The notes under the pieces are model-generated. The model was not told the origin of the DNA, ran no database searches, and saw nothing but the letters and a program-made list of their open reading frames with translations. A program made the position numbers and the translations under genes. From the NCBI GenBank assembly GCA_951406725.2, contig OX597833.1:11656001-11720000 (forward strand): 64,000 nucleotides of DNA. Direction: 5' to 3'. How positions within the stretch are numbered: position 1 is the first letter of the stretch; each line of letters begins with the position of its first letter. Source of the stretch: Octopus vulgaris (Eukaryota). Shown in pieces: positions 19 to 63,227 of the stretch.

Positions 19-84
19 CTTTGAGCTGACGAAGGAAATGTTGATCTTTATATTCAACTAATCCAGAAACGGCCGTTCCCAGGT
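19..84 (+). ncRNA. Hammerhead ribozyme-like motif (type I, degenerate stem I) in a Penelope pLTR remnant
   Basis: CTGACGA 26-32, stem II with GGA/TCC and GTTGA/TCAAC, then GAAAC-GGCC-GTT with palindromic AACGGCCGTT. Downstream TTTTGGCTGCTATTTCTA motif is shared with the 14.5-15 kb element. Confidence 0.55.
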
Positions 85-419
85 AATCTTATGTACGTGT
101 GATCTTTCGTTATTTTTCCCTCTATACCTGTGTGAGTTATTTTTGAGTATGCATTGTCTGGGAGTTTTTCTTATAGTAGAAGAAATAGCTAAGATTTTTG
201 GCTGCTATTTCTAAAAGTTCAGTGTGTGGTAAAGTAAATTATTTTACTGAAACCTAATTATATAACGTAATGTTTCAAATATACCGTAAATGGTCTTTTC
301 ACATACTGAACACTACCAGGTAAAATTAATTAATAATTTATTAGTTTTACCCTTTTATTATTGATATATATATATATATATATATATATATATATATATA
401 TATATATATATATATATAA

Positions 420-3400
420 CAATCTCAATTTCGTCCTCGAACTAAGGTTAATTTGAAAAAAGCTACAAAATAAATCCTACAGCCATGTCAGATTTCAGCA
501 TAGACCCATCATTTTCCTTTTGTAGTGGCGGGTTGCATATGCAGCTGCGCATGCTCTGTACAGCTTAAACACATGTCGGTCGTTTTAACTGTCTAATTAT
601 GCTGCATAACTAACAACTGAATCAAAAGAAAAATTTGAAGATTTACTAGCGTCCCATGTTTTCCATAATTGTCTAGAAATTACACTCACGAAGATATTCA
701 TAACCCAAAGAAGCGAATCCGGATTTGCCCATCGGAATAATTACTTCGGGATTGTAAACACAAAGTTCACTTTGATGTGTATTGCAACGTGATGTTGTTA
801 GCCTTCGTTTATCTGAGAAATATTCGACACACTCCAACAGACACTCATGAATCCTATTGGATATAACGTGACGGTCACAACATCTCAGCCTTCTTACACA
901 CAGCATCCGTGCTTGCCCTGACTATATTTGCTCTCTTTACTCTCACTTTTATGGGTGTTGTATTCGTTTCGCATGAAATGTATTCAGCTTCTAGGATCCA
1001 TCCTTTCTTCGAGTCTGGTATGTTTACGTAGCGGATCGAAAAAATCGTCATATTTGATGTTCTCTGCTGCTGAAATGAGGCCATTTTGTCTGGTTGATTT
1101 CTTTTCTTATTCTTGTATATCAGCGTTTAGTGTATGATGTGAGTGTTCTGTGTATCGACTTCCATTTTGTCATATTCTGTGGAGAGGTGGGAAGGTTGTG
1201 ATTTAGATTTAGGATTGGCAGGACCAATACTTATTTCGACTGTCTTTTGAAGGATTCATCGTGTGAATTCCACAGTCTCAGAAACTTTAAAATATACATT
1301 TAGTGATATTTCTAAAGTAGACGATAAATAGGTTTTATAAGAGATGGGGTAAGAATAGAACGGAAAGTTTCCTGATTAATAACGGCAAATAGAATGGATT
1401 GTGTGGAAGTATCTGGTTGTTGTTGAAAGAATCAGTTAAGTTCTGTGCGAAGTAATGTAGCGGTTCATGGCTCCTTGTCAGAATCCGAGTTGTAATTTGA
1501 AAACCAAGACGCCTGAGATAGTAGCGTCAAGCATTATATTTTATAAGGCTGGGCCAGAAAAGCTGATATAATTCTATGGAGGTACTTTATTTGGGGATTT
1601 TGCTGAATCATGAGACAGAAGACAAAATACTGTTAAACGAAATAGCATTTTACTTCAACATTGAATTTGGTAAACTGAAATTTTACAAAATGTGATCTAG
1701 AATTTTTCAGGCAGATTAAGATTTTTACTTCGGGATATTTCTGGCATTCAACGTCGCCTCTTTTGTAAAGCTCTGAAAACTAGTACACAAGTTTATTGTA
1801 ACGATAGACATAATTTAAAGAAAATATTAGGTAACACAATTAAAATTTTATATTATTTATTGTAATTCACAGACATCTTTTCATATGGAAGCGAATTTAA
1901 TTTCTATTCAATGTTTACTGCACACAACGCAGGTTAATTCTCGACCATTGACATACGGTGGACATGGCAATGAACCACAACCAGCCTGAACGAAATACAA
2001 TAAAGCTCCATCTTCGTCTCTGTAACCTGCTGGATCAGCTTCTGGTGCATGATCCACACACACATATTCATGTCTGCCCTTATGCCCGGGATGACTGGAC
2101 ATCAAATATCCTGAATACTCAGCTGTCCAACCAGCGTAACACTGTGTCCTGGCTGGTAACATCATAACAACAACAGGTTGTCGTGTCAAACAGACAGCGC
2201 ACGGAACGTTGTGATCATTAAGTGCATTAGCGTTAGCAAAAGAAAAGAGTTTATTAAATAGGTAAGGTTTTAGTTGATATTCAGTGCCATGAATCCAACC
2301 TCCATCTACAACCTGTGCAGTATAATTGGCCCAAATGGGATCGTGGGGTAGACATAAGAGATTACTTCCGCCACCAGTATGGGAATAATATTGTCCACCA
2401 GCCACACCTAGAATTGGTAAGAATAAATCAAGTAAAAAATATATTAAGCAAAATTATATATGAAATAACGGAAACATTCATTACAGTTTGACCCTTAAAA
2501 GAAGTCATGTTTAGTCACGTGTGAACGAATTGTGGTGTATGTGTTAGTGTTTATATGAGTGTAAGCTGTGTGTTGCTGAATGAGAGTGTGCATGTTTTCG
2601 CAGGTGTGTGTTTGTCTTCTCTACATATATGTGTGTGTGTGTTTGTTTGTGTGTGTATGTATGTGTATTTGCGTGTGTTTGTGTGTGTCTGTGTGTTTTT
2701 GTGTGTCTGTGTGTTTGTGTATGTGCGTGTGTGTGTGTGTGTGTGTGTGTGTGTGTGTGTGCACGATTAGGTAATCGTGGTTGTGATGTGTATTATTACG
2801 TATGTTTGCATGGGGTAGATGTCTGTGTGTGGATGTAAACAAACGGAGAAAGGAAAGGGATTTTGTAGCGCATGTGGTCGTGATTTCCCGAAATGGAAAA
2901 TTAGTCGTTCACGTTTGAACGGGAAAATTGTTGGTGAAGGGAATTGCATGTGGTTTGAGTAGAACAATACGAGAGACGGCAAGATGCAGAGAACTGGTGG
3001 GTAAGAGGGGATGAAATACTGTTTAGCCGACCATACGGGTGTGGCTGGCTATATCCATCGGTTTGTCTCGGACGAGTCAGGCCTACCACGAGACGTGCCT
3101 ACCACATACTATAATATTATGATCACACAGATTTTATTTCATGCAAAGCATGAACTGAGGTGGGGTGAATTTTGAAGCTCATTGATGGCGTAGTGCTTAA
3201 GATGAATGGACAGCGATGTCGGCGATCGATAAAGGATATGTGTAGGGTTTATAGGGAGCAGATTCACAAAGGATGCGAGGTTGGTTGGAGATGTGGGAAG
3301 CAGTAGCTTTGAATTGGAAGTGTCGGCGTTACCTTACAAAGATACACTGGACAATTAATGAGGCGAGGTGTTGCATGAAAAGAGATAGGTTAAAGGGGTA

Positions 3401-61019: not shown

Positions 61020-63085
61020 TATTAAATTACTGTGACAACGGATTGTAAATGGTGACTGAAATGAACACACAGTGTTCGATGTAGAGTAAACACCCCACAT
61101 ATTCTAATTCATGAACATAGGTAACTAAGTGCTGTATTTAGTGACTAAAAGCATACAGAGACAGTAAATATTAGTAAGAGATTGACTGCCGACTATTATC
61201 CGCCTTAGTGTAATCTCTTAGTCTGTCAGCTTAAGGCAATTCCGGTTCTTCTATTCTGAACCAGCTACTCCCCACCTCTTCCGGTTTCGAGCTTATGCCC
61301 TTTAAGCATGTACGCAGTCTGCTTAACAACAGATTCTACTTGTCTCTAAACCCTACCCGGATCCTCTACTGCTTTCCAATCCCGCTTTACATTCATCCTA
61401 AACACTACTGCTCTCACTTAACCTTACATTTCTTTCTCCTATCCTGTTCATGAATCGAAAATGTAGCTGTATCAAATAAAGTCTACATGATCATAACGTG
61501 TATCTAGGTGTGACTCGTCTGAAACGAAGCAATACACTTAGACACCTGCTACGGTATGTGCAACTAAACGAGGTGTAATCATCTGTCACCCACCAGTTCT
61601 CTACATATCGCCGTCTCTGGTTTGGTCCTACACGAACGTTCTCCTATGTCACAGTTCAAATGGGAACAACATATTTTCCATTTCGGGAATAAAGCTACAT
61701 GAACAACCTCCTTCACTTCTCAATCTTATGACATTCTCACGGAAACATCGACACCTGTGGACACAGGCAAAATAATTCACTTCCCAATCACAAATACCTT
61801 CGCATGTACGGACCACATATGTACCAAAAGTATGTCCAACGTTGAAATATATCACCCTTTCATGCACTATCCTAAAAAAAAGCTTATACTTAACATCACT
61901 AAACCAAGAAAATTTCCACAAAAAAGAAAGAAAGATTCCCACACGAACCATTGTAACTACCATGGAAGTTATCGAAACTTTACACTCCAAGCACCGTTAT
62001 CCTCTCGTAACAGATATTTCACACCTACTTAAGAAATACCACAAAATGTTGGCTACCTAACTCCTAATCAGGCTACAAAGACACTGAAATTTACACGAAA
62101 TAATTTTCAGATGTGTACAAATGTATATCTGATTGACTATTTTCAACCTACATGTACACATACCCACTCCAGCAGCGTTCACTCTCAAAACCTCATACTC
62201 GGGTCACATTACATTCACAATCACTCATTGTTGATTGGAAACTAATGTGCCAAAATAAAATAATGAAACCACGAAGAAATATGACTACACTTCAACAGCA
62301 GCAACAACACCACAAAGCATCAAGCTCAACAAATTATCTCATTCTATAACATAAAACTATGACACTCGCAGAAAAGAAAGTTGCTACGAGATACATATAT
62401 ACAACAACTATAACACACATAAAAGGCATAGTAAAGAAAGAAACACATCGTATACAATATAGTCAGGACAAACACATGTTGAGTGTTTCACACTATACCA
62501 AGCATGATTCATCCATGTATGTCGGAGTTTGTAGAATGGCTGCAACATAAACGAAGATAATTTATCCGATTAATTGTGTGCCATACGAATGTTCAATTGT
62601 AAAAATGCATGAATAAAGAATTATAATAAAGAATTATGAAACCACCAAATGTAAATTGACAAATAAATATATGGGAAAATTCAACATAGCATTTCCAGTC
62701 AACAGTTTGAGTGGCCAGCATTGTTTAGGCATAAGCAATTTTTATGTTCGTTAAAATATGCTAATGACATATCTCAAACACTAAAGGCAGATCCAATGCA
62801 AAAAAAGGTGCAAAAACAGCATATCTGTCCACTGCAAACACCTGTCGAATTCCCAGACACGTTTGTAAACTTTTGTCGTTATCAAAATGATAAACCGAAG
62901 AGAGAAATCTCTGGGAAACTTAAAGTCGTAGCTTTAACTAAAACACAGTCAACATCAATGAGCAAGTTACACCATGAGGCTAAGAGTGATTGAAACCCGC
63001 CTTCGTTAGCGTAGATGACTTCAAACATATGCCCCTGCAACAACCGCGGTTGTTCGAACGAGCCCGATCTTTTCTGCATATTTAT
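61020..63085 (+). repeat. Unclassified old element ending in (TG)n; inverted homolog of the sequence flanking exon 4 of the paralogs
   Basis: 61020-61800 aligns by eye to the reverse complement of intron 3 (about 2765-3610, 19135-19945, 41950-42795); 61820-63085 aligns to the reverse complement of 16570-17910. Confidence 0.75.
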
Positions 63086-63149
63086 GTGTGTGTGTGTGTG
63101 TGTGTGTGTGTGTGCACGCGGGCGTGTTTTTGTATGTTTAACCCTAGGT

Positions 63150-63227
63150 GTTCCTGCTGAGGATGATTGCACCTGGCGCGTTTTTTTACTCGCTAAACTA
63201 AAATCAGAAACCAATTGGTCAGGAAAC
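63150..63227 (+). ncRNA. Type I hammerhead ribozyme-like motif
   Basis: GTTCCTG-CTGAGGA-TGATT..AATCA-GAAAC-CAATTG-GTC-AGGAAAC; palindromic stem III; stem I is one nucleotide out of register. Confidence 0.68.

What the first reader, a model, noticed from the sequence alone, without database searches (positions are those of the whole stretch)
19..63227. High density of mutually unrelated hammerhead motifs, several with long stem II insertions
Seen: motifs at 19-84, 9506, 10414, 12338, 14576/14811, 26499, 34814, 35377 and 63150. The stems have different sequences but the architecture is the same, with a palindromic or near-palindromic stem III (AACGGCCGTT, ACGATCGT, AGTACT, ACCAATTGGT, AACGTT). 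Known: a palindromic stem III is the hallmark of PLE hammerheads proposed to act as dimers. Unusual here: stem II regions of about 30-70 nt instead of the minimal hairpin, which short-descriptor searches would miss.
Basis: partly seen in the sequence, partly recalled or inferred. Interest (0 to 1): 0.7.

Follow-up and report, generated by a model that had tools for sequence, protein, structure and literature searches.

The report
Octopus retroelement hammerheads with long arm
This stretch of octopus DNA is littered with hammerhead ribozyme motifs (predicted self-cutting RNAs) that are likely the leftover tail ends of Penelope-like jumping genes, and several carry one arm about 1.5 to 3 times longer than the published search pattern allows, so standard searches miss them.

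Summary
Real, but mostly a known kind of thing. The window is Octopus DNA. All ten listed sites hold type I hammerhead-like motifs, far above chance (3 strict canonical hits, 0 in 400 shuffles). They are not all unrelated: 11 copies come from 9 insertions and at most 7 families, and only 3 copies (2 insertions) keep a canonical core plus all stems. One motif lies 500 nt behind a Penelope RT/GIY-YIG gene. The others show the known Penelope insertion anatomy: inverted 5'-truncated pairs, a one-sided tail, microsatellite ends. They are most likely 3' stubs of Penelope-like or Penelope-mobilised elements, so the density is a by-product of truncation. The new aspect is a 33-68 nt stem II in 6 copies (5 families). 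Rfam and a published-style descriptor find none of the motifs, and 19 sense-strand hammerheads in related Penelope loci have 11-20 nt. In the one family checked with public contigs the long arm is a high-copy trait with a G-U-rich inner hairpin; no two-sided compensatory change was shown. Cleavage is untested, and no long-arm copy is linked to an ORF. The scan noted long-stem-II hammerheads before in bacterial and phage DNA, not in this setting.

The parts
18..85 (+). Type I hammerhead motif, stem II region 33 nt, 8-nt palindromic stem III, one mismatch in stem I; predicted cut after 77; tail runs to a (TA)n at about 362
9506..9551 (+). Hammerhead motif with U4C core, short stem II (10 nt), near-palindromic stem III; right arm of an inverted insertion about 9390-9657
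9431..9476 (-).
27658..27890 (.). Paralogous, more decayed copy of the 9.4-9.6 kb inverted insertion, inside a segmental duplication; its + arm has lost the core
10410..10452 (-). Ordinary minimal PLE-type hammerhead (U4C core, extra base after A9, stem II 12 nt, 4-nt palindrome); tail ends in (TA)n at about 10310
12334..12376 (-). Second, decayed copy of the 10.4 kb family (core position 4 changed, stem I lost)
14452..15140 (.). One insertion: inverted pair of 5'-truncated copies between (TA)n runs, with a 100-nt tail on the right arm only; high-copy family
14576..14682 (-). Intact long-arm hammerhead (stem I 8 bp, stem II region 68 nt, 12-nt self-complementary stem III)
14811..14916 (+). Intact long-arm hammerhead (stem II region 67 nt); predicted cut after 14908
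14838..14880 (+). Predicted inner hairpin of the stem II extension (5 G-U pairs; 18 bp in the left arm), set off from the 4-bp base by an internal loop
26497..26590 (+). Intact long-arm hammerhead (G-C at 10.1-11.1, stem II region 59 nt, 8-nt palindrome) in a 250-nt stub between (TA)n runs
34814..34916 (+). Long-arm motif (68 nt; U-U at 10.1-11.1; same stem III as 26505); stem I reduced to 2 bp, so decayed
35374..35424 (-). Hammerhead of the Penelope element (U4C core, U-U at 10.1-11.1, stem II 18 nt, 6-nt palindrome, stem I 5 bp), 500 nt after the stop codon
35250..38506 (-). 5'-truncated EN+ Penelope-like element between (TA)n runs; open frame 35916-38243 (775 aa: RT, CX4CXXC linker, C-terminal GIY-YIG); an overlapping upstream frame suggests a frameshift near 38240
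63149..63228 (+). Long-arm motif (43 nt, 10-nt palindrome); stem I pairs only if shifted by one base; tail homologous to the 14.8 kb family
63610..63720 (+). Internally deleted second copy of the 63.1 kb unit, 477 nt downstream (5' half of the hammerhead joined to the tail), ending in (TA)n
15170..15276 (-). Hammerhead-less tail stub related to the tail of motif 26 (second copy 16217-16323)
26700..27000 (.). Inverted pair of hammerhead-less tails related to the tail of motif 26

Best explanation
These are type I hammerhead motifs likely left behind as the 3' stubs of Penelope-like retroelements (or non-coding elements they mobilise), and in five families the stem II arm is extended to 33-68 nt, predicted to fold as a hairpin pointing away from a normal catalytic core. 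Steps: (1) Shown: motif anatomy, excess over chance, one motif behind a PLE ORF, inverted and truncated insertions ending at microsatellites, high copy number of the 14.8 kb family. (2) Inferred from PLE literature: a PLE RT/GIY-YIG protein nicks (TA)n DNA and starts reverse transcription 100-300 nt downstream of the hammerhead, at one of two start sites. Because it usually stops early, most insertions keep the hammerhead and little else, which explains the density, the one-sided tail and the hammerhead-less stubs. (3) Inferred: in the parent tandem transcript the RNA cuts itself after H17, mainly as a dimer through the palindromic stem III; the 14.8 kb family could also close a 4-bp stem III alone. 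(4) Inferred: the long arm is tolerated because these ribozymes do not depend on loop I-loop II contacts, and it is kept paired mainly so that stem II closes. Most genomic copies are dead relics.
For: PLE ORF with Pfam RVT_1 (below its curated cut-off) and GIY-YIG; 500 relatives at E<=1e-50. In 90 loci of PLE relatives the same descriptor finds 19 sense and 1 antisense hammerheads; two of the closest (L009, L082) share the U-U first pair of 35416 and 34822. Published PLE anatomy (inverted 5'-truncated copy, tail at one end, (TA)n bias; PMC8557442 passages; opposite-strand hammerhead pairs 100-700 bp apart, PMC4209133) matches 14452-15140 and 9390-9657. 10 of 11 copies (8 of 9 insertions) have a microsatellite within 350 nt downstream, against 31% of random positions (microsatellites cluster, so this overstates the enrichment). 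Contigs laid on 14765-15140: 559, 10152, 4381 and 150 in 4 of 4 runs. Single contigs span 14842-14934, which joins most of the long arm to stem III. The only variable core sites at >=4% are N7 and H17; stem III has none; three changes keep a pair (14913, 14889, 14872); 15040 recurs as an end followed by (TA)n. All five long arms fold as closed hairpins (z -1.6 to -3.3).
Against: No long-arm motif is linked to a PLE ORF; the one linked motif has an 18-nt stem II. No two-sided compensatory change was seen, and the tool gives no haplotypes. Variant density in the hammerhead (12 of 106 sites) is no lower than outside it (20 of 270). 14892 T>C (21-26% in X3 and X4) breaks the first stem II pair. 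Only the 14.8 kb arm clearly folds better on the sense strand; 26505 and 34822 fold better antisense. None of the 10 whole motifs folds better than shuffles (z -1.6 to +1.0). The hammerhead fold of 14819 is 3.3 kcal/mol above its MFE, and unconstrained co-folding of two copies did not give the dimer hammerhead. The other four long-arm families were seen as single copies only.
Confidence: 0.78

Rival explanations
1. The long-arm families are non-LTR retrozymes or similar non-coding tandem units that make circular RNAs and are mobilised in trans, not pLTR stubs of autonomous PLEs.
For: The 63.1 kb unit recurs 477 nt downstream as a partial tandem copy. tblastn with the window's PLE and 120 relatives finds no PLE coding remnant near any long-arm motif. 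A 2026 preprint derives retrozymes from PLE pLTRs (abstract and part 1).
Against: No complete tandem array in the window; the second 63 kb copy lacks half the ribozyme. Described retrozymes carry canonical hammerheads in 170-400 nt units (PMC7229834 passages). Short stubs lose coding sequence under either model. This rival overlaps with the best explanation and differs in autonomy and circularisation.
Confidence: 0.3
2. The stem II extension is a selected functional domain (binding site for the PLE protein, chaperone or editing substrate), not a tolerated insertion.
For: It occurs in five families with different sequence. In the 14.8 kb family the inner hairpin has 5 G-U pairs, folds at -15.4 to -19.7 sense against -6.5 to -7.5 antisense, and the majority base at 14876 closes the one mismatch of the left arm.
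Against: No shared sequence or length among the arms (26505 vs 34822 z 1.4; 63157 vs 14819 z -0.1). The strand asymmetry is absent or reversed in others. Related PLEs do without it (19 of 19 at 11-20 nt).
Confidence: 0.2
3. The long-arm motifs are chance pairings of core words in AT-rich repeat DNA, or by-products of DNA foldback (MITE-like) elements.
For: A descriptor without stem I gives about 0.5 chance hits per window, and 2 of its 8 hits lie inside ORFs. The 9.5 kb motif sits in a palindromic element. 34822 and 63157 lack a proper stem I.
Against: 0 of 400 shuffles and 0 of 121 real-DNA pattern matches pass. Family variation falls on N7 and H17. It may still apply to single weak cases (34822, 9514).
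Confidence: 0.04
4. The extension is a short spliceosomal intron whose removal restores a normal stem II.
For: PLE pLTRs can hold introns. The 14.8 kb arm has a GT...AG stretch of about 48 nt whose removal would leave about 20 nt (read from the sequence).
Against: No joint across it in any of 4 runs, one of them a guessed RNA run (table 5; contigs show presence, not absence). The AG varies (14886, 14887). The size is very small, and I saw no comparable pair of sites in the other arms.
Confidence: 0.03

Closest known systems
Minimal and variant type I hammerheads in pLTRs of EN+ Penelope-like elements (Cervera and de la Pena 2014, PMC4209133; Lunse et al. 2017, recalled and cited in PMC6765202, not held)
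   Same: Type I topology, CUGANGA/GAAA/UH core, palindromic stem III (up to 10 nt in their Fig. S3), extra base after A9, sense position in the 3' repeat, mostly single truncated copies, opposite-strand pairs.
   Different: Stem II region 33-68 nt in five families, against a descriptor limit of about 26 nt (3-7 bp stem, 3-10 nt loop) and none above about 25 nt by eye among the 56 printed examples. Stem III up to 12 nt. First stem II pair often not G-C. U4C in three families. No cephalopod in that list.
Neptune/Nematis-type EN+ PLE (Craig et al. 2021, PMC8557442)
   Same: RT followed by a CX2-5CxxC linker and C-terminal GIY-YIG; 5' truncation; (TA)n target; inverted copies; one-sided tail.
   Different: Clade not placed on a tree here. 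Tail of the 14.8 kb family is about 100 nt, not 30-40. Long-arm families not shown to belong to this element.
Non-LTR retrozymes (Cervera and de la Pena 2020, PMC7229834; preprint 10.64898/2026.07.22.740005)
   Same: Non-coding, high-copy, type I hammerhead, probable PLE mobilisation; one partial tandem at 63 kb.
   Different: No full tandem array, atypical hammerhead, no evidence of circular RNA.
Rfam hammerhead families (release 15)
   Same: Same catalytic core.
   Different: No hammerhead model matched the window at E<=1. Rfam-style annotation of giant squid found 235 hammerhead loci genome-wide (PMC6962438 passage).

Membership tests
Type I hammerhead ribozyme | Conserved core CUGANGA, GAAA, UH in order | tested here: met
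   Canonical in 26, 14674, 14819, 26505, 34822, 63157; U4C in 9514, 10444, 35416; U4A in 12368.
Type I hammerhead ribozyme | Three helices, with stem I open | tested here: met
   Unbroken in 5 of the 10 listed copies; broken or shifted stem I in the other 5.
Type I hammerhead ribozyme | Covariation among family copies | tested here: inconclusive
   14.8 kb family only: three pair-keeping one-sided changes, one breaking change, no two-sided change, no haplotypes.
Type I hammerhead ribozyme | Site-specific self-cleavage after H17 | not testable with these tools
   Needs an in vitro assay; only contigs were available.
Type I hammerhead ribozyme | Match to an Rfam hammerhead model | tested here: not met
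   None among 145 matches at E<=1; this includes the ordinary short motifs, so it reflects the models' reach.
PLE pLTR hammerhead (min-HHR) | Palindromic stem III able to pair between two copies | tested here: met
   Self-duplexes of -4.8 to -17.5 kcal/mol for 7 stem III segments (the 10444 segment was mis-cut there and is a 4-nt palindrome).
PLE pLTR hammerhead (min-HHR) | Sense position downstream of a PLE ORF | tested here: inconclusive
   Met for 35416 (1 of 9 insertions); no ORF near the others.
PLE pLTR hammerhead (min-HHR) | Stem II of 3-7 bp with a 3-10 nt loop | tested here: not met
   33-68 nt in 6 copies; the published-style descriptor finds 0 in the window.
PLE pLTR hammerhead (min-HHR) | PLE insertion anatomy: 5' truncation, inverted copy, one-sided tail, microsatellite target | tested here: met
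   14452-15140 and 9390-9657; recurrent end at 15040.
EN+ PLE, Neptune/Nematis type (element 35250-38506) | RT with DKG motif, CX2-5CxxC linker, C-terminal GIY-YIG | tested here: met
EN+ PLE, Neptune/Nematis type (element 35250-38506) | Phylogenetic placement among named clades | not tested
   No named reference PLE sequences were at hand.
Non-LTR retrozyme | Tandem units, each with a complete hammerhead | tested here: not met
   Only a partial, internally deleted second unit at 63610-63720.
Non-LTR retrozyme | Abundant circular RNA | not testable with these tools
   No raw RNA reads offered.

The most novel reading that the evidence does not exclude
Octopuses carry a distinct, unreported class of active PLE-associated hammerheads with a structured 30-70 nt stem II domain and long self-pairing stem III, borne by non-coding PLE-mobilised families that share a 3' cis-motif. 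At the density seen here (3 intact canonical copies in 64 kb) they would number around 100,000 per genome (extrapolated from one selected window; genome size of about 2.7 Gb is recalled), invisible to current descriptors, with the extension serving as a protein-binding or regulatory domain.
Probability: 0.2. Interest if true: 0.68.

Novelty: new variant of a known kind. Interest (0 to 1): 0.42.

Why it matters
Hammerheads in Penelope-like elements are known and already counted in thousands per genome, so the density is mainly a sign of many truncated insertions. The long stem II matters for two reasons. First, surveys that cap loop 2 at 10 nt, or the core-to-core spacer at 17 nt (PMC8557442 methods), would undercount ribozymes and could wrongly call families ribozyme-free. 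Second, the young, intact 14.8 kb family is a natural test case for open questions: whether PLE hammerheads need dimers or protein, and how much stem II can vary. The motifs also serve as markers for classifying unlabelled octopus repeats as Penelope-derived.

Tried and rejected
Rfam scan: no hammerhead, only microsatellite-driven miRNA and snoRNA noise. The repeat finder was swamped by microsatellites; masked self-BLAST was used instead. MFE folding of whole motifs was uninformative. Co-folding two copies without constraints did not give the dimer hammerhead. No RNA holder is on record for the 14.8 kb stretch; X11 is only guessed to be RNA, so nothing is claimed on expression. A>G at 14886 is 43% of depth in X11 against 0-12% in the other three runs, but it also occurs in DNA runs and no matched DNA exists, so editing is not claimed. 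Intron reading: no joint found. Long-arm hammerheads in relatives: none of 25 nt or more passed the strict or mismatch-tolerant descriptor in 90 PLE loci; looser settings gave long hits mostly inside ORFs, which I treat as chance. Many of those loci lack a 3' flank, and none is labelled as a cephalopod. Viral contigs held no such motif among 121 matches (the scan stopped at 12 of 64 parts). Literature searches gave no report of long-stem-II PLE hammerheads or of octopus hammerheads. Lunse 2017 and Arkhipova 2017, the papers most likely to hold such variants, were not available, and supplementary file 1 of PMC4209133 could not be searched. Look-ups in earlier findings by place and by octopus words were empty; the one by sequence gave an unrelated chance hit.
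Full report
Setting. The window is animal DNA rich in microsatellites. An exon at 1911-2360 is 99% identical to an Octopus sinensis protein, and the top 25 hits (one unlabelled) are from Octopus and Argonauta. It holds a tandem cluster of short-chain-collagen-C4-like genes, LINE fragments at 50.5-57.9 kb and one Penelope-like ORF. No whole genome was held.

Observation. Every listed site has CUGANGA-like, GAAA and UH words in type I order with a self-complementary stem III. 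Stem II regions are 33, 10, 12, 12, 68, 67, 59, 68, 18 and 43 nt, in coordinate order. A strict descriptor gives 5 hits against 0.1 in 60 local shuffles. With the canonical core alone it gives 3 hits, all long, against 0 in 400 shuffles; two of the three are one duplication. None of 121 real-DNA pattern matches in viral contigs forms both stems. The signal is real. The motifs are not mutually unrelated: counting the extra arm at 9468, 11 copies fall into 9 insertions and at most 7 families, two of which share a homologous tail. Five of the ten listed copies have a broken or shifted stem I.

Link to Penelope-like elements. [quoted passage not shown] Motif 35416 lies on its strand 500 nt after the stop. 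In 90 loci of its relatives, the descriptor finds 19 sense and 1 antisense hammerheads, all with palindromic stem III and stem II of 11-20 nt. L009 and L082 share the U-U first pair, so that feature is likely inherited and not decay; U10.1-U11.1 and U4C are described natural variants (PMC3088659, section 8 and a passage). The other motifs have no ORF nearby but show PLE anatomy. 14452-15140 is an inverted pair of 5'-truncated copies between (TA)n runs with a tail on one arm, and 9390-9657 is an older case. 10 of 11 copies have a microsatellite within 350 nt downstream against 31% of random positions (two core coordinates there were 2 nt off, and clustering inflates the contrast). Three hammerhead-less stubs share the tail of motif 26 (z 8.6-11.8). 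A 16-nt motif occurs exactly 7 times in these tails and in the 14.8 kb family (9 matches with up to 2 mismatches, 0.29 expected).

The long arm. Public contigs laid on 14765-15140 number 559, 10152, 4381 and 150 in 4 of 4 runs, from two organism labels (not a copy number). Contigs spanning 14842-14934 join most of the long arm to stem III, so it is a family trait. Of the core, only N7 and H17 vary at 4% or more, and H17 stays A or C. Stem III does not vary. Stem I, the stem II base and the inner hairpin each have one pair-keeping change. Against this: 14892 breaks the first stem II pair in about a quarter of the depth in two runs, no two-sided change was seen, and overall variant density is not lower inside the motif (12 of 106 against 20 of 270). 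The inner hairpin has 5 G-U pairs and a strong sense-strand advantage. The arms of 26 and 63157 show a slight one, and those of 26505 and 34822 the reverse. The other four long-arm families were seen as single copies.

Mechanism. Inferred: a PLE protein primes reverse transcription at nicked (TA)n DNA, starting at internal sites downstream of the hammerhead, as shown in vitro for an anole PLE (PMC11167929 passages). Early termination then leaves short stubs that keep the hammerhead. In the parent RNA the ribozyme likely cuts after H17, as a dimer through stem III. Published PLE hammerheads cut slowly and may need protein; in the anole element cleavage needed protein and was not required for insertion. 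The long arm is most simply a tolerated extension, with about 20% odds that it is a selected domain. Cleavage was not tested here.

Comparison and novelty. Hammerheads in PLE repeats, palindromic stem III up to 10 nt, large numbers of single copies and opposite-strand pairs are all published (PMC4209133: parts 1-2 of 4 of the text, supplementary file 2 parts 1-2 of 3 plus a term search). Its descriptor caps loop 2 at 10 nt, and a version of it finds nothing here; Rfam finds nothing either. Eight literature searches found no report of 30-70 nt stem II in PLE hammerheads or of hammerheads in octopus. A 2026 O. vulgaris repeat annotation lists 31 recently active Penelope-like families and does not use the word ribozyme in its main text (PMC13282606 passages). 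Also seen as passages: PMC6765202, PMC7229834, PMC6962438, and preprint 10.64898/2026.07.22.740005 (part 1 of 5 and passages). Lunse 2017 and Arkhipova 2017 could not be read; the latter used descriptors with longer loops, so prior notice cannot be excluded. Earlier notes of this scan record long or branched stem II in bacterial and phage hammerheads (unchecked), so an extended stem II is not unique in itself.

Verdict. A real, statistically solid set of PLE-type hammerhead relics, with a family-level long stem II variant that standard searches miss. New variant of a known kind; interest 0.42.

Noticed in passing
window 198-213, 14493-14508, 14984-14999, 15223-15238, 16270-16285, 26731-26746, 26951-26966: A 16-nt motif is exactly shared by the 3' tails of otherwise divergent stubs, mostly 40-60 nt before the microsatellite end (about 150 nt for motif 26); candidate recognition or priming signal for the PLE protein.
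   Followed up: partly
window 9514, 9468, 10444, 35416: U4C core in three separate families, including the one attached to the PLE ORF; family-wide status unknown.
   Followed up: partly
window 15086-15127: The longer 3' end of the 14.8 kb family finishes in a hairpin with a G+C-rich base just before (TA)n; candidate second reverse-transcription start site.
   Followed up: no
window 35450-35600 (-); 63560-63590 (+): CCAAT-like boxes and a TATA-like word upstream of the PLE hammerhead, and a TATA-like word before the second 63 kb copy; possible pLTR promoters, read by eye.
   Followed up: no
window 1908-2453, 18251-18955, 41218-41763 (-): Three tandem short-chain-collagen-C4-like paralogs in segmental duplications of 72-91% identity; an expanded Octopus gene family.
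   Followed up: partly
window 50547-57866 (-): Two adjacent broken LINEs with RT and zinc-binding domains, 64% identical over 640 nt; Dong-R4-like by recalled motifs only.
   Followed up: no
window 16712-17886 and 61845-62978: A 1.2-kb dispersed repeat, 70% identical and inverted, unidentified.
   Followed up: no
L081-L090: Relatives of the window's PLE sit on contigs of bacterial genome bins, probably animal-host contamination.
   Followed up: no
L002:3750-3790, L003:4095-4130: Close PLE relatives carry hammerheads with very short stem II (about 8-10 nt) that the descriptor missed; read by eye.
   Followed up: no
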